IMG/VR virus record: IMGVR_UViG_2915168811_000001
Reading direction: 5' to 3' (one strand)
DNA: 64,000 nt
Origin: a virus
Part shown: piece after piece, positions 16,499-60,827 of the stretch
How positions within the stretch are numbered: position 1 is the first letter of the stretch
Layout: each line of letters opens with the position of its first letter
Made by a program: the position numbers and the translations under genes
The notes under the pieces: generated by a model
Seen by the model: only the letters and a program-made list of their open reading frames with translations
Database searches by the model: none
Told to the model about the DNA's origin: nothing

Positions 16499-16509
16499 CC
16501 GCACATACT
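16499..16509 (+). promoter_or_regulatory. Class C motif CCGCACATACT
   Basis: Starts exactly 18 nt before ATG 16517. Confidence 0.75.
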
Positions 16510-16516
16510 CCGAACC

Positions 16517-17605
16517 ATGAACACGTCACTGAGGCACACGGCAGGAACAGTCACTGCGAGCGAGAAGGTCGGAGGCCGTTTTCGGTCGCAGGAGCGCGAC
16601 ACCGCTTCGGCGCCCCCAATCCCTGAAAGCGACGGTCCGCTGGACCGCTACTTCGACTCAGTGGAGGAGAAGGTCGCAGCTATGTCCGCGGAACTGGAAA
16701 CGCTGGTGAAGAACCTGGAGACGGATGAGGGCTGGAATAACTACCTCTCCGCGATGGAGAAGTTCCACAACTACTCCTTCGCGAATCAGATGCTGATCGC
16801 GATGCAGAAGCCGGACGCAACCAGAGTTGCCGGCAAAGGCGCTTGGGCGGCTCTCGGCCGCACTTTGAAGCCGGTCGAGGAACGCGGCCGCGGCATCTCC
16901 ATTTTCCGTCCAAAGATGGGGCGCGCTGACGCGAAGGACCAGGACGGGAATCCGCGCCTGGGCCCGGACGGCAAGCCTCTCAAGGAAATGCGGGTCTTCG
17001 GGTACACGACGACGACGGTGTACGACATCTCCCAGACCGAGGGATCTGAGCTTCCTGTGGGGGTGCCGCACCTCACGGAGGAGCCGCCCGCCGGTTTCAT
17101 TGAGGACCTCGAAGCTGCGATCACGGAACGTGGCTACCCGGTTTCGTATGAAGACATTCCTGGGTCGAAACGCGGATACACGTCCATCAACCGCCTGACC
17201 GGCGAACGTCGCGTAGTCGTGTCGTCGAATCTGCCGGTGGGCGATCGCGCTCACGTGCTGGCGCATGAGCTTGGACACATCGCCGCTGGCCATATGGATG
17301 AAACGGACGACTATCACACGGGTGAGGGCGGACGTCGCGGCGTCATGGAGGTGGAGGCTGAGTCGATCTCTCACGTGCTGACCCGCATGAACGGAATGCA
17401 GACTCCCGGGGAGGCGACAGCGCCGTATGTGGCCGGCTGGGCGAACGTGCAGGGCGGCGACTCCACCGTGAAGGACGCCGGCGTCCGAGTTCAGAAGGCG
17501 ATCAAGGAGATCGTCATCGGGCGGGTGTGGGCGAACGTCGATGGGTCAGGCCCGAAAGCGGAATATGTGCGCAAGCCGCGCGCGAAGAAGGGATCGAAGA
17601 AATGA
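16517..17605 (+). CDS. ardC: ArdC-like ssDNA-binding / zincin antirestriction protein with N-terminal GG(Q/R)F peptide
   Basis: FHNYSFANQMLIAMQKPDATRVAG..W..LGR (ArdC-N-like), VYDISQTEG, HELGHI and EVEAES metallopeptidase motifs. Confidence 0.8.
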   Translation: MNTSLRHTAGTVTASEKVGGRFRSQERDTASAPPIPESDGPLDRYFDSVEEKVAAMSAELETLVKNLETDEGWNNYLSAMEKFHNYSFANQMLIAMQKPDATRVAGKGAWAALGRTLKPVEERGRGISIFRPKMGRADAKDQDGNPRLGPDGKPLKEMRVFGYTTTTVYDISQTEGSELPVGVPHLTEEPPAGFIEDLEAAITERGYPVSYEDIPGSKRGYTSINRLTGERRVVVSSNLPVGDRAHVLAHELGHIAAGHMDETDDYHTGEGGRRGVMEVEAESISHVLTRMNGMQTPGEATAPYVAGWANVQGGDSTVKDAGVRVQKAIKEIVIGRVWANVDGSGPKAEYVRKPRAKKGSKK

Positions 17606-17826
17606 CAGCATCAGAGCGATTCGAGTTCCCCGTCGAGATCATCGACGAAGCGGAAGGCGAGGTCCTGATCTTCGATGACGCTGAGATGTTCGCAATGTTC
17701 GAGGAGGCCGAGGCGAGCAGTGACCCCACGTTCGACTACGACCAGATCCGTCGGCGCGCGCTGACGTTGCGCGATCACCTGTCATCCATGGTTGGCGAGC
17801 TCGACATCCTGCTTGCTGCGGCATGA
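17602..17826 (+). CDS. Small acidic hypothetical protein
   Basis: ATGA overlaps on both sides. Confidence 0.6.
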   Translation: MTASERFEFPVEIIDEAEGEVLIFDDAEMFAMFEEAEASSDPTFDYDQIRRRALTLRDHLSSMVGELDILLAAA

Positions 17827-18437
17827 CCGATCTGGATGAGCTGCTCACTGCAGCTGACACTGAACCACCAGCCGTCACTGCGGGTAAAGCGGATATGCCG
17901 GCGCCGCGCCGCCGCCGGTGGGGCGTCGTTGTGCTGTCCCTCCTCGCTATCGCGGCCCTCGGGATTTGCGGGTGGGTCTTGGCGGTCATCCTGACGACCG
18001 GGTCTCCACCGAAAGCTGTTGAGGAGTTCGTCGGCACCGCATCCACTGAGGTGAGGAAGGCCGCGACAACGGTCACTGGCGGCACCCCGACCGTCACGCT
18101 GGGTGGTGTTGGTGGGCAGGCGCAGTTGGATGTGTGCGACGGGAAGTTCATCGAGATGGATGCGTACCGCGTTCAGGCGGACCTGCCCCCAACGTTCTCG
18201 GCGCACAACGGCTGCGGCGGAGACACCGTACTGATGGTTCCGGTGGGCGGGGTGATCGACGTAGTCGGTCGCGACGGCGTCACGCGCACGTTCACAGTGA
18301 CGGAGGAGCGTCGACTGAACAAGGACACGACGACGACCGCCGATGTTGCCGGGATGACAGGCGAACATATCCTGCAGACCTGCTTCTGGGACGACGCGAC
18401 AATGCGGTTCATCTCACTGGCACCGGCAGCAGTCTGA
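17823..18437 (+). CDS. Sortase-like protein
   Basis: N-terminal TM after RRRR; AHNGC His, LQTC catalytic Cys, downstream Arg. Confidence 0.7.
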   Translation: MTDLDELLTAADTEPPAVTAGKADMPAPRRRRWGVVVLSLLAIAALGICGWVLAVILTTGSPPKAVEEFVGTASTEVRKAATTVTGGTPTVTLGGVGGQAQLDVCDGKFIEMDAYRVQADLPPTFSAHNGCGGDTVLMVPVGGVIDVVGRDGVTRTFTVTEERRLNKDTTTTADVAGMTGEHILQTCFWDDATMRFISLAPAAV

Positions 18438-18475
18438 AAAATCTTTTGGGAAGTTCGTCACATTTTGGCGTGAGG

Positions 18476-18487
18476 CCGCGCATAACT
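18476..18487 (+). promoter_or_regulatory. Class A motif CCGCGCATAACT
   Basis: Upstream of 18544. Confidence 0.75.
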
Positions 18488-18543
18488 ATGGGTGCCACCG
18501 ATGGTGGTCCATTGGAGTACCCAAAACACGAAAGGATTTACCC

Positions 18544-19914
18544 ATGAACGACAAGAGCAGCGGCACCGACGGGGACATCACCCCCGAGGGCACCGCGACG
18601 CCTGACACGACTGCTGTTGCAGTTGCGGCTCCCGTGAAGAAGCGGGTCACGAAGCGCACCGCCCTGATTGCTGGTGGCGTTGCTGTCGCTCTGCTCGCCG
18701 GCGCTGCGGCGTTCGCTACCCCGGTCCTGATCCACAACAGCCAGGTGTCCAGCTACAACGCAATCGTGGATGAGTCGGCGACGGTCCGTGCCGATCAGAC
18801 CACAGCGTTCCAGCTCGCTGAGCTCGGCGAGCCGATCTACAACCGCGAGCTCGTCGAAGCTGCTGGCCTGGCCGGCAAGATCGCCGGTTTCGGTAAGACG
18901 GCTGAGCCGGTGCTGACGAAGAAGCAGGCTGAGGAGCTCGGCAAGGCCGGCGCGGTCGCTGTGAAGGCGATCGGTGAGGCTCCGAAGATTGACCCGAAGG
19001 CGGAGTTCGAGGTTCGCCTGGCTGAGCTGACCAAGGCTGATGAGGCTGCGGCGAAGAAGGCTTCGGATGCGAAGAAGGATGCGCCTGAGAAGGTCGTTCC
19101 GGCGTCGTTCCTGGGTCTGCCTGCCGCTGAGGTGGCCGCTGCTGTCGATCCGAAGTCGGATCTGAGTGAGTTCCCGCTGCCGGCCGCGAAGACGGTCGCT
19201 GACGAGAAGGTGAACGGCGACGTTGTCTCGGCTGCGGAGAAGGATCTCGCTGACGCGAAGGCGTGGCTGGCGAAGACCCAGAAGGCTGCTGACGGCTGGT
19301 CGGCGAAGTCCGACAAGCTCGTCGCCGCGCTGGACGCCACGGCACCGGCGGTTGACGCTGCTGCGAAGGGCGCTCCGGTGCAGGCGAAGGCTGTTGTGGC
19401 CGCTGCCCCGAAGGCTTCGGCTGAGGCACAGAAGAAGGTGACCACGACCGCTCAGGCGGCCGCTGACGCGGTGAAGGGCGGCGACTCGATCGTCACTGCC
19501 CGTGCGCTGGTCGCATATGTCGATGCCGCGAACGCTGCGGTGGCAGCACACAAGGCCCAGGTCGACAAGGAAGCTGCCGAAGCCGCTGCGGCTGCCGCGG
19601 CCGCTGCAGCGGCAGAAGCTGCCGCGAACGGTGCAAGCGGTTACACCGACCCGAACACCGGCGGCTGGGTGCCCAGCAACAACGGCGGCGGTGGCGGCGG
19701 TAACTGGGGCGGCGGCGGCACGACCGGCGGCGGTAACTGGGGCGGCGGTGGCGGCGGCGGCACGACCGGCGGCGGCGGCTCGACTGGCGGTGGCGGTGGC
19801 GGAGCGCCTGTTTGCCCCGGCCCTCCTGGCCCTGGGTGGTACCAAGGTGGTGGCTCTTCCGGTGGCTGCCCGACCTGGGTTGCTCCGGGTAGCGGCGGCG
19901 TCGACGACTGGTAA
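18544..19914 (+). CDS. Membrane-anchored Ala-rich coiled-coil surface protein with Gly-rich C-terminus
   Basis: KKRVTKR plus TM; long helical region; GGGGNWGGGG repeats and CPGPPGP...CPTW tail; RBS GAAAGGA. Confidence 0.75.
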   Translation: MNDKSSGTDGDITPEGTATPDTTAVAVAAPVKKRVTKRTALIAGGVAVALLAGAAAFATPVLIHNSQVSSYNAIVDESATVRADQTTAFQLAELGEPIYNRELVEAAGLAGKIAGFGKTAEPVLTKKQAEELGKAGAVAVKAIGEAPKIDPKAEFEVRLAELTKADEAAAKKASDAKKDAPEKVVPASFLGLPAAEVAAAVDPKSDLSEFPLPAAKTVADEKVNGDVVSAAEKDLADAKAWLAKTQKAADGWSAKSDKLVAALDATAPAVDAAAKGAPVQAKAVVAAAPKASAEAQKKVTTTAQAAADAVKGGDSIVTARALVAYVDAANAAVAAHKAQVDKEAAEAAAAAAAAAAAEAAANGASGYTDPNTGGWVPSNNGGGGGGNWGGGGTTGGGNWGGGGGGGTTGGGGSTGGGGGGAPVCPGPPGPGWYQGGGSSGGCPTWVAPGSGGVDDW

Positions 19915-19934
19915 ACCGCTGCTGTGAAGCTGTT

Positions 19935-19964
19935 GGGGTGTCACTTTAGGGTGGCACCCCTTTT
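19935..19964 (+). terminator. Intrinsic terminator
   Basis: GGGGTGTCAC/GTGGCACCCC plus TTTT. Confidence 0.8.
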
Positions 19965-20128
19965 GCGTGCGTGGACGCAGAAGTTGCGCGGCAGTCGATG
20001 CCATGGGAATGCTCCTCGGTAACGGGATGCTCGGCCTGTTCGGCCTCACCCCATTGATGCGCGGCAGCTGGCAGGGGTTTTGACGCTCTCAGCTGTTTTC
20101 CAGGTTCACGAGGGAATTCGGGCTGATC

Positions 20129-20142
20129 GGATCGCATGTGTG
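20129..20142 (+). promoter_or_regulatory. Class B motif GGATCGCATGTGTG
   Basis: Upstream of the adhesin gene. Confidence 0.7.
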
Positions 20143-20220
20143 TGGGAGAAGGCAATTTTTCTTGCCGGAAGTGATGCGCTGCCACAAGGGCAGGCAGACT
20201 GACCCGAAAGGCACCACACG

Positions 20221-23088: not shown

Positions 23089-23094
23089 CAGAAT

Positions 23095-23888: not shown

Positions 23889-23957
23889 GAGCGAGCGGCA
23901 CGCCCGCGGCACCGGCTTGGCGGCTGGAGCGGCACACGGCGAGAGGCCCGCAAACGA

Positions 23958-24081: not shown

Positions 24082-26124
24082 TTGTCATGTTTTGTTATCG
24101 AACCCATCCAAGCGGTTTTGGCGAACCGTTGTGTTTTGGAAGGCAGGATCATCGTAACCCGGAAGCGACCGAAATTCCAGGTAGTTCCCGCAAACGACCC
24201 GTTGGCGTGTCGTGAATCAGCGGAACTCTCTTGGCAGCTCACGCGGGACATTTCCCCGCGGAGCCGAGTTCGTGTCCCCTCACAGGAGGCGTCCGGGGTG
24301 TGGACGAATGCGTACCCGGTCACCCACAAAACCGCTGATGAGATCCCTGTTTCACCGTGGGCAATGCCGCTCACCGACAACCGCAACGAATACCGCTTCC
24401 TGAGCTTCGACTTCGACGCAAAAGCAGGGAACCCGGCGAAGGATTCGGCGCGACTCATCGCCATTCTGGACGCCGCGAACATCGGGCGTGTCGCCACAAC
24501 TTCCGGCCCCACTGGAGGCCGCCACGTATGGGTCGGAATGGCCGAATCGGCGCCGCCTGAGCTCGTGCGGAAGCTCGCCCAGCTTGCAAAGTCGCTGTGG
24601 CCGTCACTGGATACGACACCGCTCATGAACGCCGCCACAGGCTCCGTGCGGCCCCCGTTCTCCCCGCACCGCGTCCCTGGATATTGGTCCCGCCCTGACT
24701 TCACTGACTGGGATTGTGAAGCGCTGAAAACGCCGTCGACGACCCTTCAGCAGCTGCGTCTACTCATCCTTCATCTTGAGGACATTGGCGCCGAACTTCC
24801 CGTATCTGCGATGCAGAAACTCCACGGCGTGAAGTTTGACAGTGATGGAAACGCGCACCTCTCCGGCGCGCAGCGGAAGGTGTCGACGAGCGTCCAGGTT
24901 CTGCTGGCCACGATCCCTCCTGACGGAGCGGACCTCTCAGTCCTCGCATCACGCATCCTCGCCGGCCTGGCCCGCGCGCGTCATTCATATAAGTCCGTCC
25001 GACAGCTTGCCGAGACGGCTCCTGGGCTCGAACATCTGCGGTCGATCGCTCATCCCTCCGGGGGACGCGTCCCGCGCACTGCCCGGGGTGCAGAGGCGAC
25101 CTTGGCGCGCAAATGGGGGTACGCGGTGCAGTTCGTGGCCCTCTCCCCTGCGACTGCCGCTACAGCGGACGACGACGAGTTCGAGGACCGCCTGATCGAC
25201 GTCACAGACCAGGTGGCTCAGGCGCTTGACCACGCAGCGACGATGCCGGGTCGCTGGCTGCGCTCAGGACAGGCTCACCGCCTGGTCCTGGACGCGCTCT
25301 GCACGAACTTCCTCCTAGCGGTGCGCACTGAGATTGAGATGGACGTGCGACGGCTCGCAGAAGCCACTGGATACTCCCGCAGCACGTGCGCGCGAGCTCT
25401 TCACGCGCTGGCGGCAGATGGATGGGTGGAGCGCACTGAGCTTGCTGATGGAGTTCACGGAGCCCGCTGGCGGCTGAACCCCAAAAAGTTCTCCACAAGG
25501 CAAGTCGGTACTGATGGGACACAAGGGGTGACCCGCGCCCCCTCCTTCGGCCTCCCCCGTGAGACCCTGCTGCGCACCCTCGAGCATCGGCTTTCGCTCG
25601 AAGCCCAGCCTCTTTTCGCGGCTACCGGTTCGCTGGGACGTCTCGCAGGTCGAATCGTCTCCCTCGCCCCAGGTGAGGTGGCGTTTACGCTCGAGGACCT
25701 CGCCGGCTGGCTCCCCCTCCCGCGCGGCACCCTCCTGCGAGCATTGCGCAGTCTCCACACGCACGGGCTTGCTGCCAAGCTTTCGGCCGGTAACTGGATC
25801 CTCCAGCTCACCGAGTTCAGCATCCGGCGGGCCACAGACGTCCTAGGCCTCACCAACTGGTCCCGCCATCGTGCTGAACGCCTCGCGACAGAGCGCTACG
25901 TCTGGTCCTGGTGGACAGCCGAAGTCACCTGGATGCGCAAGCGGAAGAAACGACGAGACCGCCGGGCGGGATCAGGCTCCACACCTCTGTTCGGTGGACT
26001 GAGCCAGATCCCCTCCTTCCCTCGCTACCCACGGAATGCGAAGCGTCGCGGTGACCATGCACTCGCGCGCGCCCTTGCCGAGCTCAGAGATACCGAGTCG
26101 CTTGGCCGCGCCGCGGCCGCCTAG
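24082..26124 (+). CDS. Plasmid replication protein (prim-pol-like N-terminus, wHTH C-terminus)
   Basis: FLSFDFDAK (DxD), SGPTGGRHVW, SVRPP; MDVRRLAEATGYSRSTCARAL HTH; start uncertain. Confidence 0.7.
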   Translation: MSCFVIEPIQAVLANRCVLEGRIIVTRKRPKFQVVPANDPLACRESAELSWQLTRDISPRSRVRVPSQEASGVWTNAYPVTHKTADEIPVSPWAMPLTDNRNEYRFLSFDFDAKAGNPAKDSARLIAILDAANIGRVATTSGPTGGRHVWVGMAESAPPELVRKLAQLAKSLWPSLDTTPLMNAATGSVRPPFSPHRVPGYWSRPDFTDWDCEALKTPSTTLQQLRLLILHLEDIGAELPVSAMQKLHGVKFDSDGNAHLSGAQRKVSTSVQVLLATIPPDGADLSVLASRILAGLARARHSYKSVRQLAETAPGLEHLRSIAHPSGGRVPRTARGAEATLARKWGYAVQFVALSPATAATADDDEFEDRLIDVTDQVAQALDHAATMPGRWLRSGQAHRLVLDALCTNFLLAVRTEIEMDVRRLAEATGYSRSTCARALHALAADGWVERTELADGVHGARWRLNPKKFSTRQVGTDGTQGVTRAPSFGLPRETLLRTLEHRLSLEAQPLFAATGSLGRLAGRIVSLAPGEVAFTLEDLAGWLPLPRGTLLRALRSLHTHGLAAKLSAGNWILQLTEFSIRRATDVLGLTNWSRHRAERLATERYVWSWWTAEVTWMRKRKKRRDRRAGSGSTPLFGGLSQIPSFPRYPRNAKRRGDHALARALAELRDTESLGRAAAA

Positions 26125-27347
26125 TCGGACTCAGGAGCGGGGCGGTCCCACAGCGGGCCCTCTTCGAGCCGGGTGGCGAGCATCAGAGAAACCTCTCGGA
26201 GCATCGGCGCTGCCCCGAACACTGTCCCTTGCCGGCGGATCTCCGCGGCGAGCTTCACCCGGTTCGAAATCTTCCCTCGATGCGCGAAATCGTTCAGCAG
26301 ATTGATCGCACTCCGGTGTTTGTCGTGCTCCCCGCCTGAAATCAATTGATGCGGACCCTCGGCGCGGGCGCGCTCAAATGCGGCTGCCCAATGCTCGGGT
26401 TGCATGTTCTTGACCCCGATTCGCCGCACGTCAGCGGCAGGATCCTTCGATTCAATCCATGCGGAACGAATTTCTACGAATTCGCGCTGATCAACTGATT
26501 CATGGTTTTGCAGATGTCCGAGCAGCAGCTCCGGGTCGTAGCTTGAGACTCCAGTCCCCATTGAGTGCAGGGTCCCCGCTTCAGCTTCGCCGCCATTGGC
26601 TGAGATGCTCTCGCTGGTGACGCACTCGCTGTCCATCTTTGCAGCACGGACAGCCTCAAAAGCTGGCGCTGGACCGTTCAGTCCGAGCCTCACGTCGCCC
26701 TCGAAATGACCGGCCAGCCACTCTTCGATCTCCGGTCGGTATTCACGCGCTGTCGCCGCAGAGACGCCGCGCAGTGGTGCGGTCATGGTCTGCGTCACGG
26801 TGACCGAACCGTTTTCACGTCGAACGAACACCTGGTATTTCTCTGAAGCACCCTGGCTCTTCCACTCCTCGCTGTGGTTCGAGTTCACCATGAGGAGGTT
26901 TTCATCAGACCAGCGGGAGGTACGCGTGAAGGCCTCGGTACGCTCAGTCAGTACCGCAATGTCACCCGTGAGCATCGCTCTGGTTCGGCTGTCGAGAGAC
27001 CGCTGATCGATGTTCTCGAGCCGTTGCAGTTCCGCACAATCGAGCAGGTGCTCGGCGATCTCCGGGTAGGCGAGTTCCTGCTCACAGTCAGGGAGCTCGC
27101 TGAGCCGGGTGATCTCCTGCCGGTGCTCCCCCTGGACAGTTACCAGGTAGAGCCTTTCGGAGTCACCGGCACAGGTCATTCCGCTGATCTGATGCAGCGC
27201 CATGGACTCCAGCACCGCGGCTTCCTGGCCTGCAGGAGTGCGGTGCGGCACAGAACCGCTCTCGGAGCGGATCAGGGAAGCAAACTGACCGCCTACCTTC
27301 GAACCCGCTTTGACGGACCCGGCTCGTTCTCTCGCTATGGTGCTCAT
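26121..27347 (-). CDS. Hypothetical protein with N-terminal GGQF peptide
   Basis: MSTIARERAGSVKAGSKVGGQF; convergent stop shares CTAG with rep. Confidence 0.75.
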   Translation of the reverse strand: MSTIARERAGSVKAGSKVGGQFASLIRSESGSVPHRTPAGQEAAVLESMALHQISGMTCAGDSERLYLVTVQGEHRQEITRLSELPDCEQELAYPEIAEHLLDCAELQRLENIDQRSLDSRTRAMLTGDIAVLTERTEAFTRTSRWSDENLLMVNSNHSEEWKSQGASEKYQVFVRRENGSVTVTQTMTAPLRGVSAATAREYRPEIEEWLAGHFEGDVRLGLNGPAPAFEAVRAAKMDSECVTSESISANGGEAEAGTLHSMGTGVSSYDPELLLGHLQNHESVDQREFVEIRSAWIESKDPAADVRRIGVKNMQPEHWAAAFERARAEGPHQLISGGEHDKHRSAINLLNDFAHRGKISNRVKLAAEIRRQGTVFGAAPMLREVSLMLATRLEEGPLWDRPAPESD

Positions 27348-27354
27348 GCTCAGG

Positions 27355-27365
27355 AGTATGTGCGG
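27355..27365 (-). promoter_or_regulatory. Class C motif CCGCACATACT
   Basis: Starts exactly 18 nt before ATG 27347. Confidence 0.75.
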
Positions 27366-27368: not shown

Positions 27369-28136
27369 CTACAGCGCTACGCCGAGCACGTTCACGGCAA
27401 GGCCGGCGAGCGTGTACAGCCCGAGGGTTGCCCCGAACATGTACTCGAGCACAGACCCTGTCTCCGCGAGGATCGGGACAGCCATGTAGCCGTTGCCTTT
27501 CCAGATTTTGTTGAGGATCGGGATCTTCTGCACAGCTTTTGGTGCGCGGATCTTCAACGGCCAGAACCAGTTGATCCCTTCGACGGTGAGGAAATCGCCG
27601 AGGATGTGAGCGGTGAAGCCAACGGTGACGCAGAGCTGAAACCAACCCATGTCGTTCGGGAGGAACAGCGCCATTGCGGCTGCAGCCAGGATTCCGATCA
27701 TCCACGCCTTCGGCCAGCTTTTCGCGACCTGCAGCACCTTCAACGCGAAGGTGAGCAGCGCAGCCGTAGCGACTGCGGCCCCGAGCTGAATCGTTGACCC
27801 CCACCACGGAGCATCCCACGTGATTTGTCCGATCCAACCCATCGCGAACCAGCAGCCCACAATCGCCAGAATCGAGTGCATGCCGTGGCGGTGCCCGCCT
27901 GAAATTGCTCCGACAGCTCCCGCAGCGACCCGCCCAGCGATCGGCACTGAGTGCGCGATCGTGGCGTTGTGGTGGTCAGCGTCCGGCAGCAGTGCGGCTC
28001 CAGCGCACACCAGCGCTCCGGTGACCATGTGCAGCGGTTCAATTTGCACGATGCCGAGAGCTGGGAATGACGGCGCAGTTGAGGCGACGGCCACCCATGC
28101 GGCGGCGCCGGAAAGGGCGTGGTTGGTTCCCATCAT
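27369..28136 (-). CDS. YdjM-like inner-membrane metal-dependent hydrolase
   Basis: MMGTNH, LLPDADH, HRHGMHS, HILGDFLT..G motifs; multiple TMs. Confidence 0.85.
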   Translation of the reverse strand: MMGTNHALSGAAAWVAVASTAPSFPALGIVQIEPLHMVTGALVCAGAALLPDADHHNATIAHSVPIAGRVAAGAVGAISGGHRHGMHSILAIVGCWFAMGWIGQITWDAPWWGSTIQLGAAVATAALLTFALKVLQVAKSWPKAWMIGILAAAAMALFLPNDMGWFQLCVTVGFTAHILGDFLTVEGINWFWPLKIRAPKAVQKIPILNKIWKGNGYMAVPILAETGSVLEYMFGATLGLYTLAGLAVNVLGVAL

Positions 28137-34928: not shown

Positions 34929-34940
34929 CCGCGCATCACT
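34929..34940 (+). promoter_or_regulatory. Class A motif CCGCGCATCACT (leaderless spacing)
   Basis: 6 nt before ATG 34947. Confidence 0.85.
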
Positions 34941-34946
34941 CTGGGC

Positions 34947-41572: not shown

Positions 41573-41578
41573 GTGTTC

Positions 41579-41590
41579 AGTGATGCGCGG
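41579..41590 (-). promoter_or_regulatory. Class A motif CCGCGCATCACT (leaderless spacing)
   Basis: 6 nt before ATG 41572; back-to-back with the copy at 41665. Confidence 0.85.
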
Positions 41591-42667: not shown

Positions 42668-42679
42668 CCGCGCATCACT
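42668..42679 (+). promoter_or_regulatory. Class A motif CCGCGCATCACT (leaderless spacing)
   Basis: 6 nt before ATG 42686. Confidence 0.85.
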
Positions 42680-42685
42680 GTGGGT

Positions 42686-49909: not shown

Positions 49910-49926
49910 CGCCCCGGCAATTCGGG

Positions 49927-53167: not shown

Positions 53168-54046
53168 CTAGGCGTATTCGCGCTGAGCGGCGGCGAACAC
53201 GCCCACCTCTTCGGAGATGATGGCCAGTGCCGCCTTCGCCTCCGCTTTCCGGCACTGCGTTGCGTTGCAGAGCGCCATGACCCCTGGGGTGCTTCCCTCG
53301 AAGACGCATCGCATCCATGCGATCGCGCAGCGCATCAGCACCTTGTCTCCCGGGTATGAGTCACGCAAATGCGAGGTGAACGCACGCACCGCTTCATCGA
53401 GCTCCGCTCGAATGAAAGGCTGCTCGGCGGCTGGATCCTCCATGTCGAACTTCTCGGAACCGTCTTCGTAGCGCTCCGAAGTGGACAGAGGATCGATGGG
53501 TGCGAAATCTGCCTCTGACAGGATCATCCCGCTGCGAGCGGCGTCTTTGCGCCGGGCGATCATGCGCTCGTTTACATGCTCGATGACTTCAGCGTCCGTT
53601 GCATCCTCGCCGGTGAGTGCGCGCAGCTCAGCCCGCCCCTTCACGATCTGCTTCTTTCGTCGAACCACTCCGGTGAGCTCCGTCATCCCGGTCCGAGCGC
53701 CGGACTCCTGGTAGACCATCACCGCATACCGTGCGCAGCCGTAGAGGTGCGGGATGTAGAGCGCGCGAATCTTCTCCACTTGCGGGGCGGTCACTCCGAC
53801 CAACCATTCGTACACGGTGAGGTTGACGATCTGCGCGACATCGCTGCTTTCATCCACCAGCTGATAGCGGCGCGCCAGGGAGAGCGACCACTTCTTCAGG
53901 ACGTCAGTGTCCTGAAGATGCCGGATGGCGACTTCCGCGAGCTTTCGTCTGCCGATGTCTCCTTCCGGCAGGGATGCGATCGGAGCGATCAGGTCCCCGA
54001 GCTTCTGGTTCTGGGTCGCGGCGTCGACGTTCACGAAGACGGTCAT
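53168..54046 (-). CDS. Sigma-70-family (group 3-like) factor
   Basis: Region 2-like LARRY...DVAQ...HLYGCARYAV; region 3-like ELRALTGEDATDAEVIEH; degenerate C-terminal HTH; RBS AAGGAG before ATG 54046. Confidence 0.6.
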   Translation of the reverse strand: MTVFVNVDAATQNQKLGDLIAPIASLPEGDIGRRKLAEVAIRHLQDTDVLKKWSLSLARRYQLVDESSDVAQIVNLTVYEWLVGVTAPQVEKIRALYIPHLYGCARYAVMVYQESGARTGMTELTGVVRRKKQIVKGRAELRALTGEDATDAEVIEHVNERMIARRKDAARSGMILSEADFAPIDPLSTSERYEDGSEKFDMEDPAAEQPFIRAELDEAVRAFTSHLRDSYPGDKVLMRCAIAWMRCVFEGSTPGVMALCNATQCRKAEAKAALAIISEEVGVFAAAQREYA

Positions 54047-54063
54047 GTTCTTGCTCCTTGTGT

Positions 54064-54447
54064 TCACAGGGCGGGCTTGTGAGTGAGGGGGAAGCCGGGC
54101 CATGGCGGGCCGTGCGGCTTGATGAGGTTTGAGAAGGCGACGAGGCGACGTCCGCACGCGCGCGAGTCGATGAGCCAGCCGACTGAGAGCCGGGACGCGC
54201 TCATGGAGGTCGGGCAGACCAGCGCGAGTTCCCGAACGAGCTGCTTGCGTCGGCGTTCTCCCCAGCCGTGCTGGGTGGCCATCAGACGGCGGATTGTGAT
54301 TGCGCGCAGCGGGGCGCCGTCCGGGCCGGCGGCGTACGCGATCAGGTCAGCGACCGAGGCGAGCCCTTCGGAGAGGGAGATCAGCCAGTCGCCGCGGGTG
54401 CGGTTAGCAACCGCGCGAGCGGCTGTGAGATCTGCGGCGACAGTCAT
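54064..54447 (-). CDS. mIHF-like (H2TH) nucleoid-associated protein
   Basis: AARAVANRTRGDWL..LSEG..SVADL...ITIRRLM...GWG aligns with the actinobacterial IHF pattern. Confidence 0.55.
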   Translation of the reverse strand: MTVAADLTAARAVANRTRGDWLISLSEGLASVADLIAYAAGPDGAPLRAITIRRLMATQHGWGERRRKQLVRELALVCPTSMSASRLSVGWLIDSRACGRRLVAFSNLIKPHGPPWPGFPLTHKPAL

Positions 54448-55370
54448 GCCGCGGCGTCCTCTTCGAAGAGAAGGTCTTGCATCTCCTCGGCGACACTGAA
54501 TGACGCTGCGTTGACGCTCGCGTCAACCGTCAGGGAGCGAAGGATCCGCTCGTCGGAGAGTCCAGAGCGTTCCGGATACCGGTCCTTCCAGACCTTCTTG
54601 ATCGCTTCGCTTGACGTGTTGGCGCCGAGCTCGCGGTGGATGAGGCGAATAGAGCGCCCGAACGTGGGGTCACCGATCGCGCGGCGAACTGAGCTCTCGA
54701 GGGCTGACTCGGCGTTGCGAACGATGTACGTGACGCGGTCACCGACCGTGCTGGGAAGGTCTCCGACGGCGCGCTCGACGATGATCGGGAAGAGCACTTT
54801 GCGCTTGCGGTCGATGTCGCCGAGGAGGAAGTCATCGGCGAGCGATTCCTGCTCGACGGAGTCGATGACTCCGCTGCCACCCAGGGTGCCTTCGCTGATT
54901 TCAGCTGCGACCTTCTTCGACGCGATGCCAAGGAGGTGCACGACGTACGGGCGGAATAGTTCTGAGAGCTCCCACTGGGACCTGACACCGACCTGCTTGA
55001 TGCGCTCGATCTCGCGGGCAAGAACTCGCGGAGTGCGAAAACGTGCGATACGAAGGTCGATCGAATCGGTCGGCTCGGCGCGCGTGTGCAGGCGCACTTG
55101 GCCAGACTGCGGACCGACGTATCGGTCTGCGTGCCGCCAGGTCGCCTCGAGCTCTTCCCCATCCACGAGCGCGCCGACAAGAGGGACATCCCACGTGATC
55201 GCCACGTTCGTGTCCCGCAGGAACAGCGGGAGCGCGTAGAGAAAACCCGGCGCCGGCGAGTGCACTGTCGCGGTGACCTCGGCGGCTGACCGTGCGTGAC
55301 GGATGTCGGTGAGAAGAGCACTGCATTCCTTGGAGCTCGGGGCGAACGCACCGGCGTATGGGCGGCTCAT
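54444..55370 (-). CDS. Second sigma-like protein, apparently lacking region 4
   Basis: ELSELFRPYVVHLLGIASKKV (region 2.1-like); SIRLIHRELGANTSSEAI (region 3-like); weaker resemblance than 53168. Confidence 0.4.
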   Translation of the reverse strand: MSRPYAGAFAPSSKECSALLTDIRHARSAAEVTATVHSPAPGFLYALPLFLRDTNVAITWDVPLVGALVDGEELEATWRHADRYVGPQSGQVRLHTRAEPTDSIDLRIARFRTPRVLAREIERIKQVGVRSQWELSELFRPYVVHLLGIASKKVAAEISEGTLGGSGVIDSVEQESLADDFLLGDIDRKRKVLFPIIVERAVGDLPSTVGDRVTYIVRNAESALESSVRRAIGDPTFGRSIRLIHRELGANTSSEAIKKVWKDRYPERSGLSDERILRSLTVDASVNAASFSVAEEMQDLLFEEDAAA

Positions 55371-57307: not shown

Positions 57308-57394
57308 GCCCTAGAAGCACCGGGAGCCCAGAGACAGCGAAGGGGCGCTTCCACGTGATTACGCGAAAACGCCCCTGGGGTACTCAGCTAACTG

Positions 57395-58198
57395 TCAGCT
57401 TGCGACGAGGTACTGCACCGGCACCTCTGCAGTGACCGGCGGGACCCCCACCATTACTGGCGAGCTCGGCACTACGACTGGCTGCCGCGTCAGCGGGGGA
57501 ACGGTGAATAGTCCGTCCTCAGAGACAGTGAGCGCGGGCAGTGGTTCGGAATCGAACGGGGCTTCTTCCGCTACCTCTTCAGGGTCGATCTCCGCTTCAC
57601 GGCTCAGGTGCTCCGCCCAAGCGGCATCCAAGTCAGGTTCGTAGGCATCGGCAGCGCGCTCATAAGTGGGTTCGGGCACGAAAGTGGAGACTTCAGAGAT
57701 GGCTTCTTCCCGTGCGGCCGCCACTTCACGCTGGAACGAAAGCCGCACAACCTCCTCGGCTGACACCAGTGCTGCGAGGGGAGCCGAGATCGCGATCAAG
57801 ACACCAAAAAATGCTTCGTAGCGTGTGAAATCCCATGACCAGTGCGATCCCGCATGTGCACCGTTAATCAGGACGGAAATGATCGTGAAGGTCCACAGCC
57901 AGCGGCGGGCGATTCCAGAGTTCTCCAGCTCGCCCCGCCACCGGTAGATAGCGAACGACACCGTGTAAGTGAGGATCGCGCCGTCGATGAAGATCGGGGC
58001 GAGAAACTGCACCCATTCAGCGCCCTCTGGAGGCCCTGCCCATTTCGCGGCCTCGGCGATGGTGGCGTACGAGAACACGTACGACGCGACCATGATGGTC
58101 ACGACCAGGGCGATCGCAAACCATCCAACGGCTTGGCGGTCAGGCGAGATGCGGGCAGAGCTCTTCTTTTTCTCAGTCACATTCATGATCAGATCCAT
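57395..58198 (-). CDS. DUF2637-like membrane protein (Spd-type)
   Basis: Four TMs; SYATI...APIFIDGAIL...SVLINGAH...IAISAP. Confidence 0.7.
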   Translation of the reverse strand: MDLIMNVTEKKKSSARISPDRQAVGWFAIALVVTIMVASYVFSYATIAEAAKWAGPPEGAEWVQFLAPIFIDGAILTYTVSFAIYRWRGELENSGIARRWLWTFTIISVLINGAHAGSHWSWDFTRYEAFFGVLIAISAPLAALVSAEEVVRLSFQREVAAAREEAISEVSTFVPEPTYERAADAYEPDLDAAWAEHLSREAEIDPEEVAEEAPFDSEPLPALTVSEDGLFTVPPLTRQPVVVPSSPVMVGVPPVTAEVPVQYLVAS

Positions 58199-58201
58199 TC
58201 G

Positions 58202-59701
58202 CTAGTAAAGGTCGACGTCTTCGTCGATGTCGTTAATCCAGGAGAGTGCGCCGGTGTCCAGCGCATCTTTCGCCCGCGTCACGGTGACGTAGGAGATGCG
58301 TGCCTCTTCGGCCTGGAGCTCAAGCCGATCGGTGGTGTCGTTCCGCTTCGGCTCCGGGAAGTCCTTCGACACGCGAACGGAGCCCCACTCGAGGCCCTTG
58401 GCGATGTGCGCCGTGGAGATGACGAGATCAGCAGAAGCCATGTCGCAACGCTCGAGCGCATCGACCACCTTCTCCGCGGTGAACCGGTCGACGACCTTCA
58501 CGAGCGGGGCGAAATCCTTGCCCTCGTCGGTCTCGGAGATCTCGACCACCTGATCCCAGGTTTCAAATGCCTGGAAGTCGGGGTGGCTGGTCCGACCCTT
58601 CACCTGCAGGTCCACAGCAGCCTTCGCGAGCCGCTGCAGTTCCTGAGCCTTTCGCTCGCCGGCAACACCCACGGTTCGGTTCTTCTCCAGCCCCTTCAGG
58701 ACCTCGAAGATCGCTCCGCCGTTCGTGCGGCAGATCACTGCGTCAGGCGCTGTCACACGACCCACGCGAGACTGCTTCGCAGGGTTGCCGCGGATCGTCA
58801 GGTCAGCACCAAGCAGATCGAGCCACTTCTGAGCTTCCTCAGCGACCTCTTCGCCGAACCGGAAAGACTGACTGAGCTGCGCGACGTACGCACCGGGAAG
58901 GTTGCTCATTGCATCCATCGTTCCCGTGCGCCAGCCGTAAATGGCCTGGCTGCGGTCCCCGACAAACACCCGCTGGGCGTCCTGCTTCAGCAGCACGTCC
59001 ACCATCAGCCCGTCGGCGTCCTGGGCTTCGTCGAGGCATACGAAATCGACGTTGAGCTTCGGGTTGGATAGCTGCCACATCTTCAGGTAGGAGTCGTGCT
59101 TGAACGGCAGCGTCCCGAAGGGATCGCGCTGATCGGCCCACACAGTTTCCGCGAAGTCGAGGATGGTGCGAGCCAGGTCTTCTTTCGCTGCCCGATTGCC
59201 TACGACGAGTGCTTTCGGGAGAGCGACGTGCTGCAGTCCGAGCACCGCATCGGCGGTGCGCTGGAAGCGGGTCACTGTCTCCTGCGCGAGCTGCGTCAGA
59301 GACTCCCGCCGGATCTTCCGAGTGGTCGACTGTGCGTCGGGGCCAAAAACGTAGTCGGTTTCGATGCCGACCCGCTTCGCAATGACGCCCCACGGAGTGA
59401 ACCGAGGCGTGTTGTTCAGGCGCTCACGGAAAGGGGCCGCCATGGACCGCCAGGCGAGAGAGTGCACTGTGAACGGGTTGGTCTGGGTTCCGCTGAAACG
59501 GGCCTGCGCTTCCTGCGCGACGCTCTTATTGAACGCGAGATACATGCCTCGGCGGTGCGGCGCGTACCGGGCCAGTAGCTCCAAGGTCGTCGTCTTTCCG
59601 GAACCCGCGGCCGCCTCAATGACGAGGTCCTTCCCGGTTCGATAGCACAGCAGGGCGTGCTCCTGCTCAGCTGTGGGAGCGTGCTGGACGGCGGTGGACA
59701 T
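58202..59701 (-). CDS. UvrD/REP-family 3'-5' helicase
   Basis: AAAGSGKTT, LDEAQD, VGDRSQAIYGWR, LSQSFRFG, HIAKGLEW, YVTVTRAK. Confidence 0.9.
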   Translation of the reverse strand: MSTAVQHAPTAEQEHALLCYRTGKDLVIEAAAGSGKTTTLELLARYAPHRRGMYLAFNKSVAQEAQARFSGTQTNPFTVHSLAWRSMAAPFRERLNNTPRFTPWGVIAKRVGIETDYVFGPDAQSTTRKIRRESLTQLAQETVTRFQRTADAVLGLQHVALPKALVVGNRAAKEDLARTILDFAETVWADQRDPFGTLPFKHDSYLKMWQLSNPKLNVDFVCLDEAQDADGLMVDVLLKQDAQRVFVGDRSQAIYGWRTGTMDAMSNLPGAYVAQLSQSFRFGEEVAEEAQKWLDLLGADLTIRGNPAKQSRVGRVTAPDAVICRTNGGAIFEVLKGLEKNRTVGVAGERKAQELQRLAKAAVDLQVKGRTSHPDFQAFETWDQVVEISETDEGKDFAPLVKVVDRFTAEKVVDALERCDMASADLVISTAHIAKGLEWGSVRVSKDFPEPKRNDTTDRLELQAEEARISYVTVTRAKDALDTGALSWINDIDEDVDLY

Positions 59702-59748
59702 GAGTCTCCTTGGGGTCTGCGAACACATAGGTTCGGGGGTCTGCCCCT

Positions 59749-59760
59749 AGTGATGCGCGG
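59749..59760 (-). promoter_or_regulatory. Class A motif CCGCGCATCACT
   Basis: Upstream of the UvrD-like gene. Confidence 0.8.
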
Positions 59761-59781
59761 TGCTCTGCGAGAGAGAGCCGA

Positions 59782-60771
59782 CTACGCGGCGACGCGGTCG
59801 AGCTCAGCTGCGGCCAGCTGAAGGCCTGACGTGATCAGAACTTCACGGGACTTCGATGGAGTAGTAATCCGATGCGACGCGTTCTTGTAGTCAAAATCGA
59901 GATCCAGTACCCGGTAGTCGCGGGCGGCAAGCCAGGCGAGCATCCGGGTGTGGTCCTGCCCTTTGTGGGTGAGGACGTTCGACATCGCGAACGGGATCCC
60001 GCGGTCTGCGAGCCCGTCGAGCCAGTCAAGAAGCTCGTCATCGATTGACGCGTTCCAGCTCGCCTTGTTGTACGGCGCCGCACCGAGCAGATACGGTGGG
60101 TCTGCGTAGCAGAACACGTCACCGTCAGGCAGCTGCATTTCACGGAAGTCGATGTTCGTGATCGAGTGGTCAATCGTGGCCAGGCGGGCGACGGTGTCCG
60201 CGAGATTCTTCCGCACGTTCGCATTGAAGTCGCGCTTGCCCGCGGGGTTACGCCAATGCCCGTCACGCGCCCTCAGCCTGATTTGGTTATTGAACCCAAA
60301 CAGCACCAAGGCGAACGTTGCTGCGTCCCGGCGGCGTCCGGCAAACACTCCAGAGTTGTAGTCGTCACGCAGTCGTTCATATGGCCCGCGGTTGTGGCTG
60401 ACCAGACCGGAAGAGGATGTGCCGCCGAACGCCTCGTAACCGTGGGTGCGTGAATCGGAGAAGCCATACCCCTCGATCAGCGCCTCGATTTCCGCTTCGA
60501 TCTGACCTGGGTGTGAGCTTGAGAAATATCGGGCGAGGCCCGCGGCTTCGGCCGAAGCGTCGTTGAACCAGACATGCGCCGCGTCGACGTTCATGCCGAC
60601 GTTCATGCCCCCGCCGAACACGTCCACAAACGTCGACCCGGTCAGATCCCCGAACTCAGGGATGATCGTGTGCAGCAGCCGAATCTTGTTCCCGACGTAG
60701 TTCGTCGGGGCTTTCGTGAAACGGCTGATGGGGGCTTTCGGACGGCGCCGAACTGGTGCTGTGCTGTGCAT
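59782..60771 (-). CDS. Orphan N6-adenine DNA methyltransferase (D12/Dam family)
   Basis: NYVGNK, DVFGGG, GFNNQIR..G....P.GKRDFN, YADPPY, FAMSN, EVLIT. Confidence 0.9.
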   Translation of the reverse strand: MHSTAPVRRRPKAPISRFTKAPTNYVGNKIRLLHTIIPEFGDLTGSTFVDVFGGGMNVGMNVDAAHVWFNDASAEAAGLARYFSSSHPGQIEAEIEALIEGYGFSDSRTHGYEAFGGTSSSGLVSHNRGPYERLRDDYNSGVFAGRRRDAATFALVLFGFNNQIRLRARDGHWRNPAGKRDFNANVRKNLADTVARLATIDHSITNIDFREMQLPDGDVFCYADPPYLLGAAPYNKASWNASIDDELLDWLDGLADRGIPFAMSNVLTHKGQDHTRMLAWLAARDYRVLDLDFDYKNASHRITTPSKSREVLITSGLQLAAAELDRVAA

Positions 60772-60780
60772 GAGGACTTA

Positions 60781-60789
60781 TATGTGCGG
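60781..60789 (-). promoter_or_regulatory. Class C motif CCGCACATA
   Basis: Starts exactly 18 nt before ATG 60771. Confidence 0.75.
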
Positions 60790-60818
60790 CGAGCCCGAAA
60801 TTCGGGACCACCGGCCTC

Positions 60819-60827
60819 CCGCACATA
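60819..60827 (+). promoter_or_regulatory. Class C motif CCGCACATA
   Basis: Starts exactly 18 nt before ATG 60837. Confidence 0.75.

What the first reader, a model, noticed from the sequence alone, without database searches (positions are those of the whole stretch)
16499..60827. Sister motif CCGCACATA exactly 18 nt before four start codons
Seen: at 16499+, 27365-, 60789- and 60819+ the first C is 18 nt before the ATG of ardC-like, 26121..27347, the MTase and 60837..61550, with no RBS. This is the same register as the leaderless class A copies (12+6 nt), sharing a CCGCRCAT core. Inference: a sub-class of leaderless promoters for establishment and anti-restriction genes that must be expressed immediately after entry.
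Basis: partly seen in the sequence, partly recalled or inferred. Interest (0 to 1): 0.75.

Follow-up and report, generated by a model that had tools for sequence, protein, structure and literature searches.

The report
Second class of private leaderless promoters
Four genes of a large actinobacterial conjugative element carry the same 9-base signal exactly 18 bases before their start codon; it is most likely a second version of the element's own promoter, and related elements use such a version mainly for proteins that share an odd N-terminal peptide, often plus a DNA methylase.

Summary
CCGCACATA occurs 4 times (0.23 expected). Each first C lies exactly 18 nt before the ATG of a long ORF with no Shine-Dalgarno: an ArdC-like/M78 protein, a 408-aa protein, a D12 DNA methylase and a 237-aa protein.

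The motif shares the core CCGCRCAT with the abundant class A box (CCGCGCAT[CAT]ACT, 18 copies). Three class A copies also have their ATG at 18 nt.

Relatives show a real promoter sub-class, not chance:
- A syntenic contig (L205) keeps a non-main-class box (CCGCACGTAAT / CCGCCAGTAAT) 17-18 nt before the methylase ortholog and its divergent neighbour.
- Other Microbacteriaceae-type elements put CCGCACA[TC] boxes 17 nt before start codons. One does so for 7-8 N-peptide genes plus a methylase.
- A 701-kb Leifsonia replicon has two box classes.

The box is not a host promoter. It is at background in 120 other family genomes. In Leifsonia it lies only where a divergent sigma-70-like gene lies, and the window has that gene at 53168-54046.

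The common denominator of the sister genes is a shared N-terminal peptide (3 of 4), not anti-restriction. "Expressed immediately after entry" is untested, and no RNA data exist. The wider CCGCACAC-type private promoter was already noted by this scan on other DNA (e1-5343801).

The parts
16499..16507 (+). Sister motif copy 1 (CCGCACATA). It starts 9 nt after the stop codon of the upstream gene, whose stop ends at 16489.
16517..17605 (+). ArdC-like / M78 (ImmA/IrrE-type) metallopeptidase gene, 362 aa, with the N-terminal peptide RHTAG..KVGGRF
   Evidence: Pfam PF06114 and PF08401; 270 homologs, the closest in Leucobacter, Agromyces, Microbacterium and Leifsonia; N-terminus
27357..27365 (-). Sister motif copy 2; starts 3 nt after the TAG stop of the upstream YdjM-like gene 27369-28136
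26121..27347 (-). 408-aa protein with no Pfam family and the N-terminal peptide RERAG..KVGGQF; homolog in Leucobacter locus L001
60781..60789 (-). Sister motif copy 3, left arm of a back-to-back divergent pair
59782..60771 (-). D12-class N6-adenine DNA methyltransferase, 329 aa, without the N-terminal peptide
   Evidence: Pfam PF02086, E 1.1e-13; ortholog in L205
60819..60827 (+). Sister motif copy 4, right arm of the divergent pair
60837..61550 (+). 237-aa protein with no family and the N-terminal peptide RISAG..AGGQF
60794..60806 (.). Perfect 6-1-6 palindrome CCCGAAaTTCGGG between the two divergent sister promoters; candidate operator
   Evidence: Only exact copy in the window
53168..54046 (-). 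Divergent sigma-70-like protein, candidate reader of the CCGCRCAY promoters
34929..34946 (+). Class A copy with ATG at 18 nt (leaderless register)
42668..42685 (+). Class A copy with ATG at 18 nt, before the GmrSD-like gene
41573..41590 (-). Class A copy with ATG at 18 nt, before a 69-aa ORF
   Evidence: the positional counterpart in L205 is also at 18 nt

Best explanation
CCGCACATA is the upstream half of a second sequence class of the element family's private promoter, which has no -35 element.

The shared core CCGCRCAY occupies about -18 to -11 relative to the start codon. It is most likely recognised by host RNA polymerase carrying the element-encoded divergent sigma-70-like protein (53168-54046). 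Transcription would then start at, or within a base or two of, the A of the ATG, giving leaderless mRNAs.

The class-specific bases after the core (ATA[CT]N here, against CACTG in class A) set this group apart. The group is a small regulon: proteins with a common N-terminal peptide (ArdC-like and others) plus a DNA methylase.

Shown:
- the motif, its register and the lack of a Shine-Dalgarno;
- conservation of position and class in relatives;
- restriction of the motif to DNA that also carries the sigma-like gene;
- the association with the N-terminal peptide.

Inferred:
- that it is a promoter;
- that the transcription start is on the ATG;
- that the sigma-like protein reads it;
- that the class difference has a regulatory meaning (timing or strength).
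For: 1. Statistics in the window. There are 4 copies against 0.23 expected. All 7 perfect-core boxes with a start codon within 16-19 nt have ATG at exactly 18. The flanks are at random-level identity.

2. The class is distinct. The sister class is leaderless in 4 of 4 copies, against 3 of 18 for class A (hypergeometric p = 35/7315 = 0.005). It carries the N-peptide in 3 of 4, against 0 of 18 (p = 19/7315 = 0.003).

3. It is a promoter, not a translation signal.
- Class A also precedes the tRNA array (4175+, tRNA 30 nt on).
- Class A also precedes Shine-Dalgarno-bearing leaders of 47-95 nt.
- In the syntenic relative L002 the boxes sit at the same gene positions but with leaders.
- In L005 the CCGCACACA box is 17 nt before two N-peptide genes, but about 50 nt (box start 9315, ATG 9365) before ArdC, which has its own Shine-Dalgarno.

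4. Positional conservation of the sub-class. In L205 the main class is CCGCGCATTC. The methylase ortholog has CCGCACGTAATTAGTGA-ATG and the divergent gene has CCGCCAGTAATGAAGTGC-ATG, back to back.

5. The same pairing occurs elsewhere.
- L208: nine CCGCACATCTAC boxes, 7-8 before N-peptide genes and one before an N6_N4 methylase.
- L207: CCGCACATCC 17 nt before at least three N-peptide genes (5279, 7073, 8649; a fourth box at 9508 opens a reading frame that also encodes the peptide).
- L001: six N-peptide genes with CCGGTCTCAC.CAGA..C-ATG at 18 nt.
- Leifsonia contig C5: class 2 (CCGCACACYTA) N-termini carry the peptide in 8 of 17, against 2 of 20 for class 1 (p = 0.023, using a regex written after seeing the data).

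6. The motif is private, not host-wide. CCGCACATN{9,10}ATG occurs 39 times in the Leifsonia genome and 0-5 times in each of 120 other genomes of the family. Within Leifsonia the hits lie on contig C5 and in C1:389-475 kb. Those are exactly the two places with a homolog of the sigma-like protein.

7. The protein at 53168-54046 is sigma-like.
- Its family profile hits only sigma factors at the top of the PDB list (FliA, E 0.009).
- 9 of 40 family members match Sigma70_r3 and 3 match Sigma70_r2.
- The AF2 model has pLDDT 86.8.
- All 50 best Foldseek PDB hits are sigma factors aligned over the full length.

8. No sigma-70-type -35/-10 promoter is found at the three sister loci. No -35 conservation is seen over the pooled boxes.
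Against: - There is no transcript data at all. No RNA run holds the window or the Leifsonia relative, so the promoter function and the transcription start are inferred.
- A at position 5 also occurs in a main-class box of L002, and G-type boxes with A at position 9 exist (13391-, 7107-, 18476+). The classes are therefore not separated by any single base.
- The ArdC ortholog of L002 has no recognisable box.
- In the second Leifsonia element (C1) the CCGCACACGTA class drives pilin-like membrane proteins, not N-peptide proteins.
- The Foldseek E-values for the sigma-like model are weak (0.02 and above, TM 0.25-0.29). No binding was tested.
- One sigma-like gene faces two box classes in three elements, so the factor that tells the classes apart, if there is one, is unknown.
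Confidence: 0.58

Rival explanations
1. The sister copies belong to the same promoter class with no separate function. They are ordinary sequence variants (perhaps weaker ones) of class A that happen to sit in front of leaderless genes.
For: - They share the core and the register with class A.
- L002 tolerates A at position 5 in a main-class box.
- Intermediates such as CCGCGCATACATA exist (13391-).
- Each element has only one sigma-like gene.
Against: - Four identical 9-mers stand against random flanks.
- None has the CACTG tail that 18 class A copies share.
- The link to the N-peptide is significant here (p = 0.003).
- The same link recurs in L208, L207, L005 and Leifsonia C5.
- The non-main-class box is kept at the orthologous methylase locus in L205.
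Confidence: 0.2
2. The motif is a protein-binding operator or a start-associated element, comparable to the mycobacteriophage L5 stoperators or the cluster K start-associated sequences. It would not be the promoter itself.
For: - It is a short asymmetric motif locked to the gene strand and lying in very short intergenic gaps (21-27 nt at two sites). From my own knowledge, that is how stoperators look.
- A palindrome lies between the divergent pair.
Against: - The 17/18-nt register to start codons without a Shine-Dalgarno holds in dozens of copies.
- The same family precedes tRNAs and long leaders, so the link to translation is not obligatory.
- No other promoter-like element is present.
- The motif co-occurs with a sigma-like gene rather than with an identified repressor.
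Confidence: 0.1
3. The sister motif is a host-read early promoter. It would be recognised by a host sigma factor, so that ArdC and the methylase are made before any element protein exists.
For: - The idea fits anti-restriction logic. Leading-region anti-defence genes of Gram-negative plasmids are expressed early from special promoters (PMC11541004).
- L207 and L208 show the box without a sigma-like gene in the 21 kb that could be read.
Against: - The box is at background (0-5 per genome) in 120 Microbacteriaceae genomes, and on Leifsonia contigs outside the two sigma-bearing regions.
- No TANNNT lies in the right place and there is no -35.
- It shares its core with class A, which drives the element's replication genes.
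Confidence: 0.07
4. The motif and its register are relics of a duplicated 5' module (promoter plus N-peptide coding region) and are not under selection of their own.
For: - In L001 the box and the first 11 or so codons are nearly identical at the DNA level in six genes.
- The ArdC and g408 copies here share 54-67% identity just downstream of the motif.
Against: - The methylase copy has no N-peptide.
- Identity outside the 9-mer is 0.29-0.37 on average.
- Three class A genes without the peptide share the 18-nt register.
Confidence: 0.05

Closest known systems
Leaderless-mRNA promoters of Actinobacteria (housekeeping sigma A, -10 TANNNT a few bases before the start codon; own knowledge of M. tuberculosis and M. 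smegmatis transcription-start maps)
   Same: There is no Shine-Dalgarno. The start codon lies at a fixed short distance from a -10-region element, there is no conserved -35, and ATG is used.
   Different: The conserved element is CCGCRCAY (8-13 nt), not TANNNT. It is absent from host chromosomes and confined to one family of mobile elements.
Phage T4 late promoters (TATAAATA) read by the divergent sigma gp55, and other phage or plasmid sigma-dependent private promoters (own knowledge)
   Same: It is a -10-region-only promoter with a long invariant box. It is presumably read by host core polymerase with a very divergent sigma encoded by the mobile element. It sorts genes into classes.
   Different: The setting is a conjugative element of high-G+C Gram-positives and the mRNAs are leaderless. 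The sigma-like protein appears to keep a C-terminal helical domain. Two box classes face one sigma-like gene.
Private CCGCACAC-N9-ATG promoter of an actinobacterial ICE, noted earlier in this scan (e1-5343801); similar notes on Bifidobacterium (e1-2947698) and sponge-actinobacterial elements (e1-5263084)
   Same: It has the same core (CCGCACA[CT]), the same 9-10 nt spacer to the ATG and the same proposal of an element-encoded divergent sigma.
   Different: Those notes describe one element-wide box. Here the element has a main class (CCGCGCAT[CAT]ACT) and a minority class tied to N-peptide proteins and a methylase.
Leading-region anti-defence genes with single-strand promoters (Frpo) in Gram-negative conjugative plasmids (PMC11541004)
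   Same: Anti-restriction genes (ArdC-type) and methylases have a dedicated promoter type of their own.
   Different: Frpo promoters are long hairpins that form in the entering single strand. Here the intergenic gaps are 21-66 nt and the signal is a short linear box. Early timing is not shown.
Mycobacteriophage L5 stoperators and cluster K start-associated sequences (own knowledge)
   Same: They are 13-nt-scale asymmetric motifs, strand-locked and repeated before many genes in short intergenic gaps.
   Different: Stoperators bind the repressor and have no fixed register to start codons. Start-associated sequences contain the Shine-Dalgarno. Here there is no Shine-Dalgarno and the register is exact.

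Membership tests
Element-private CCGCRCAY leaderless promoter family (Microbacteriaceae-type conjugative elements) | Core CCGCRCAY on the gene strand | tested here: met
   All four copies are CCGCACAT.
Element-private CCGCRCAY leaderless promoter family (Microbacteriaceae-type conjugative elements) | Start codon 9-10 nt after the core (17-18 nt from the first C), with no Shine-Dalgarno | tested here: met
   ATG lies at 18 nt in 4 of 4 copies. Relatives have 17-18 nt.
Element-private CCGCRCAY leaderless promoter family (Microbacteriaceae-type conjugative elements) | Occurs on DNA that also encodes the divergent sigma-like protein, and not on host chromosomes | tested here: met
   The window has 53168-54046. 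Leifsonia has two motif regions and two sigma-like genes. 120 other genomes are at background. L207 and L208 could not be judged because only 21 kb was read.
Element-private CCGCRCAY leaderless promoter family (Microbacteriaceae-type conjugative elements) | Transcription starts at or next to the ATG | not testable with these tools
   No RNA runs were listed.
Housekeeping sigma A leaderless promoters of Actinobacteria | -10 hexamer TANNNT ending 6-8 nt before the start codon | tested here: not met
   The hexamers at that place read CATACT, CATATA and CATATG (or ATACTC and so on). Class A reads CATCAC. The sigma-70 scan found 0 sites.
Housekeeping sigma A leaderless promoters of Actinobacteria | Used genome-wide by the host | tested here: not met
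   0-5 hits per genome in 120 genomes, against 39 in the genome with the element.
T4-gp55-type -10-only promoters read by a mobile-element sigma | No conserved -35 element | tested here: met
   No column upstream of the box is conserved. Upstream identity of the sister copies is 0.32.
T4-gp55-type -10-only promoters read by a mobile-element sigma | Element encodes a divergent sigma-family protein | tested here: met
   Profile, Pfam-on-members and fold searches all point to sigma factors. Binding to core polymerase or to DNA was not tested.
T4-gp55-type -10-only promoters read by a mobile-element sigma | The sigma lacks region 4 | tested here: inconclusive
   The model has a C-terminal four-helix domain after a disordered linker. 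Foldseek aligns about 290-310 columns to full sigma factors.
Frpo-type single-strand promoters of plasmid leading regions | Long imperfect hairpin that forms a -35/-10 duplex in ssDNA | tested here: not met
   The intergenic gaps are 27, 21 and 65 nt, and the box is linear. Only the divergent pair has a 13-nt palindrome.
L5 stoperators / cluster K start-associated sequences | Variable distance to start codons (stoperator) or an embedded Shine-Dalgarno (start-associated sequence) | tested here: not met
   The register is an exact 18 nt and there is no Shine-Dalgarno.

The most novel reading that the evidence does not exclude
The sister class marks a conserved "cargo" regulon. The shared N-terminal peptide (R/K-x-P-x-G-x3-GG-Q-F) would be a delivery or processing signal. 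This promoter class would time the synthesis of proteins that are shipped with, or act first on, the transferred DNA (ArdC-like peptidase and others), together with a protective methylase. That would be a two-tier, sigma-dependent transcription programme in giant actinobacterial conjugative elements.
Probability: 0.2. Interest if true: 0.8.

Novelty: new variant of a known kind. Interest (0 to 1): 0.6.

Why it matters
Large conjugative elements and megaplasmids of Microbacteriaceae-type actinobacteria appear to run their genes from a private promoter that makes leaderless mRNAs. This finding adds that the promoter comes in at least two classes. One class is tied, across several diverged elements, to proteins with a common N-terminal peptide (including the ArdC-like anti-restriction candidate) and to DNA methylases.

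If confirmed, it gives a simple sequence rule for predicting a co-regulated set of establishment or interaction proteins in uncultured elements. It also gives a tractable system (Leifsonia sp. Leaf264 is cultured) for asking how one divergent sigma factor, or an unknown partner, tells promoter classes apart. My four literature searches found no paper describing this promoter or the peptide.

Tried and rejected
Searches that gave nothing:
- Megablast of 20 kb against the plasmid and phage collections found no match.
- The search for related loci with the single ArdC protein found nothing. The alignment-based scans returned mostly distant Firmicutes ArdC loci, and only L005, L085 and L086 were useful.
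- Three encoding-contig look-ups of the window's own proteins found nothing on record.
- No RNA-seq exists for the window or for the Leifsonia relative.
- The word-index homolog search for the sigma-like protein found only the protein itself. The exhaustive HMMER search was needed.
- The genome behind L205 is not held for whole-genome pattern search.

Ideas tested and not supported:
- A second "sigma-like" gene at 54444-55370. It shows no profile similarity to the sigma-like family and its AF2 model is poor (pLDDT 52), so its sigma-likeness is not supported. It is, however, conserved next to the sigma-like gene in Leifsonia.
- A common class-specific consensus for the "second class" across elements. 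Beyond the shared core I found none.
- The N-peptide link is not universal. It is absent from the second Leifsonia element.

Technical points:
- The permissive pattern CCGCRCAYN{9,10}ATG has a high background in G+C-rich genomes (20-45 per genome). The A-specific pattern was used instead.


Full report
OBSERVATION

CCGCACATA occurs exactly four times in the window: 16499+, 27365-, 60789- and 60819+. Dinucleotide-preserving shuffles give a mean of 0.23 and never more than one.

In each case the first C lies 18 nt before the ATG of a long ORF:
- 16517-17605(+), 362 aa;
- 26121-27347(-), 408 aa;
- 59782-60771(-), 329 aa;
- 60837-61550(+), 237 aa.

The nine bases between motif and ATG contain no Shine-Dalgarno-like run.

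I scanned both strands for a perfect CCGCRCAY core followed by a start codon 16-19 nt downstream that opens a coding ORF. This finds exactly seven sites, all with ATG at 18 nt: the four sister copies and three class A copies (34929+, 42668+, 41590-).

The four sister copies are 100% identical in the 9-mer. Their identity is only 0.29-0.37 upstream, in the spacer and in the first 80 coding bases. The motif and its register are therefore conserved against near-random flanks.

CONTEXT

The window is part of a 218-kb wastewater-metagenome contig with 62-64% G+C. It encodes the following:
- DnaE, an NAD-dependent ligase and a primase-like protein;
- SNF2 and UvrD helicases and RNase H;
- two ParA-like and two FtsK/SpoIIIE-like ATPases;
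- a DUF2637 protein;
- an array of nine tRNAs.

There are no phage structural hits. The closest homologs of the ArdC-like protein are from Leucobacter, Agromyces, Microbacterium and Leifsonia. This is a large conjugative element or plasmid of a Microbacteriaceae-type actinobacterium.

Function of the four sister genes:
- the first is an ArdC-N plus M78 (ImmA/IrrE-type) metallopeptidase protein;
- the third is a D12 N6-adenine DNA methylase;
- the other two have no family.

RELATION TO CLASS A

CCGCGCAT[CAT]ACT occurs 18 times. Nothing upstream of the box is conserved, so there is no -35 element.

Most class A copies lie 47-95 nt before start codons that have their own GGAG-type Shine-Dalgarno. 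One lies 30 nt before the first tRNA. Three have ATG at 18 nt. Class A therefore behaves as a promoter, not as a translation signal. The 18-nt register is the geometry at which the mRNA would begin on the start codon.

The sister copies share the core and the register but none has the CACTG tail. Within the window the sister class differs from class A in two ways:
- It is leaderless in 4 of 4 copies, against 3 of 18 (hypergeometric p = 0.005).
- Its genes encode the N-terminal peptide R..AG..GG[QR]F in 3 of 4 cases, against 0 of 18 (p = 0.003).

RELATIVES

1. L002, a 15-kb metagenome contig, is syntenic with the window. It carries CCGCGCATAACTACAGGTG at the same gene positions as class A, but with leaders and Shine-Dalgarno sites where the window is leaderless. 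One copy there reads CCGCACATAACTACAGGTG, so A at position 5 alone does not define a class. Its ArdC ortholog has no recognisable box and no Shine-Dalgarno.

2. L205, a 163-kb contig of an NCBI assembly with 60% G+C, is syntenic with window 45-62 kb. Its main class is CCGCGCATTC, at the orthologous UvrD, primase, DnaE and small-gene positions. The methylase ortholog has CCGCACGTAATTAGTGA directly before its ATG. The divergent neighbour has CCGCCAGTAATGAAGTGC before its ATG. The two boxes stand back to back, 8 nt apart. So a non-main-class box at 17-18 nt is kept at the orthologous locus.

3. L005, L207 and L208 carry CCGCACACA, CCGCACATCC and CCGCACATCTAC boxes 17 nt before start codons.
   - In L208, 7-8 of nine copies precede proteins with the N-peptide and one precedes an N6_N4 methylase. 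This is the same mix as in the window.
   - In L005 the box is 17 nt before two N-peptide genes. It starts at 9315, 50 nt before the ArdC ATG at 9365, and that gene has its own Shine-Dalgarno. This again argues for a promoter rather than a translation element.

4. L001 (Leucobacter) has six N-peptide genes, including ArdC and the homolog of the 408-aa protein. Each is preceded by CCGGTCTCAC.CAGA..C-ATG at 18 nt, while neighbouring genes have Shine-Dalgarno sites.

5. Leifsonia sp. Leaf264.
   - CCGCRCAYN{9,10}ATG occurs 103 times, against 9 for the reversed control. About 65 hits are spread over one 701-kb contig (C5) and a few lie in C1:389-475 kb. Other contigs show only consensus-less hits.
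   - C5 has two classes: CCGCACATG[TA]NGGTG, and CCGCACAC[CT]TA.
   - By a simple regex, 8 of 17 class 2 N-termini and 2 of 20 class 1 N-termini carry the peptide (p = 0.023). The regex was written after seeing the data.
   - In the C1 element the CCGCACACGTA class drives pilin-like membrane proteins instead. The link to the peptide is therefore frequent but not universal.

WHO READS THE BOX

The box is not a host promoter. CCGCACATN{9,10}ATG occurs 39 times in the Leifsonia genome and 0-5 times in each of 120 other genomes of the same family. No sigma-70-type -35/-10 site is found at the sister loci. The hexamer in the -10 position is not TANNNT.

The protein at 53168-54046 has no Pfam hit of its own. 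An exhaustive HMMER search found 94 relatives. The evidence that it is sigma-like:
- 9 of 40 relatives match Sigma70_r3 and 3 match Sigma70_r2.
- The family profile's best PDB hits are sigma factors (FliA, E 0.009).
- The Atlas look-up gave sigma-factor neighbours.
- The AF2 model (pLDDT 86.8) has sigma factors as all 50 best Foldseek PDB hits, aligned over nearly the full length. The E-values are weak (0.02 and above) and the global TM is low, as expected for a multi-domain protein.

In Leifsonia the profile finds exactly two homologs, on C5 at 648 kb and on C1 at 451 kb. Those are the two motif-bearing regions. In the 121-genome sample the protein occurs in three genomes. I take this as good circumstantial evidence that this divergent sigma reads the CCGCRCAY core.

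The neighbouring genes 54064-54447 and 54444-55370 are conserved with it in Leifsonia. I could not support a sigma-like nature for 54444-55370.

One sigma-like gene faces two box classes in the window, in C5 and in C1. The simplest reading is that one sigma reads the shared core. The class-specific tail would then set strength or be read by something else. Between the divergent sister pair lies the only exact copy of the palindrome CCCGAAaTTCGGG, which is a candidate operator.

INTERPRETATION

Independent comparative evidence now supports it.

The functional label "establishment and anti-restriction genes" fits two of the four genes. The better-supported common denominator is the N-terminal peptide, which is also widespread at the N-terminus of ArdC homologs, together with a methylase.

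"Immediately after entry" is untested. If the promoters need an element-encoded sigma, they cannot be the very first genes expressed unless that sigma is supplied in some other way. The sigma-like gene itself lies downstream of a class A box (59760-) in a co-oriented gene string.

COMPARISON AND NOVELTY

The design resembles two known kinds:
- actinobacterial leaderless promoters, in geometry;
- T4-type -10-only promoters read by a private sigma, in logic.

It fails the defining tests of the host sigma A type: there is no TANNNT and it is not host-wide. It is unlike Frpo single-strand promoters of plasmid leading regions (PMC11541004), because the gaps are too short and there is no hairpin. 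It is unlike stoperators and start-associated sequences, because the register is exact and there is no Shine-Dalgarno.

My four literature searches found no paper on the box or the peptide; the Iyer et al. paper that I opened mentions neither.

The scan itself has already noted the CCGCACAC-N9-ATG private promoter on another element (e1-5343801) and similar designs elsewhere. The element-wide promoter is therefore not new to this scan. New here are the two-class structure and its tie to a protein family defined by an N-terminal peptide.

I rate this a new variant of a known kind, interest 0.6. The main weakness is the complete lack of transcript data.

Noticed in passing
16517-16600, 27260-27347, 60837-60930; L001:9983-16800; L207; L208: An N-terminal peptide (R/K-x-P-x-G-x3-GG-Q/R/E-F, or an HPR..G.F variant) heads many otherwise unrelated proteins of these elements and most ArdC homologs. 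In L001 the box plus the first 11 or so codons are nearly identical at the DNA level in six genes. Its function is unknown; a delivery, processing or tagging signal is possible.
   Followed up: partly
60794-60806; also 60859-60871, 49914-49926, and downstream of 59760- and 53116-: The perfect palindrome CCCGAAaTTCGGG lies between the divergent sister promoters. CCCCGAA-type half-sites recur just downstream or upstream of class A boxes, and also in L002. They may be operators of an unidentified regulator.
   Followed up: partly
G001 contig C5 (701 kb; holds L086 and L182): The whole 701-kb contig of Leifsonia sp. Leaf264 is decorated with CCGCACA[TC]-N9/10-ATG boxes. It also encodes DnaE, SNF2, GmrSD, ArdC and the sigma-like cassette. 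It looks like a giant separate replicon or element with its own transcription system.
   Followed up: partly
G001:C1:389000-476000 (L209-L215, L183): A second, smaller element in the same Leifsonia genome has its own sigma-like gene and two box classes. The CCGCACACGTA class drives pilin-like membrane proteins.
   Followed up: partly
54064-55370 (-): Two genes upstream of the sigma-like gene (a 127-aa and a 308-aa protein) are conserved in the same order in Leifsonia C5, and the same layout appears in L205 and L206. The 308-aa protein has a beta-rich N-terminal part and a helical C-terminal part in a low-confidence model. Its role is unknown.
   Followed up: partly
15885-15905; L002:80-110: A GGATCGCATGTGTGTG-like motif lies downstream of the class A box at 15844+. 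A GGTTCGCATGTGTGTG motif lies before the FtsK-like gene of L002. This may be a third box type that shares CGCAT.
   Followed up: no
18538-20064: A CCGCGCATCAATG box at 20064- points into the 3' end of the + strand gene 18544-19914. A 503-aa antisense ORF (18538-20049) with lower coding score lies there. This could be an antisense promoter or a chance copy.
   Followed up: no
5370-5442: ARAGORN calls a tRNA with an undetermined two-base anticodon loop inside the tRNA array.
   Followed up: no
L208:20973-21011: An RbpA-family gene (RNA-polymerase-binding protein of actinobacteria) is encoded on a related element that uses CCGCACATCTAC boxes.
   Followed up: no
L002:4852-6108: An rve-family transposase is inserted right after the ArdC ortholog in the syntenic relative.
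   Followed up: no
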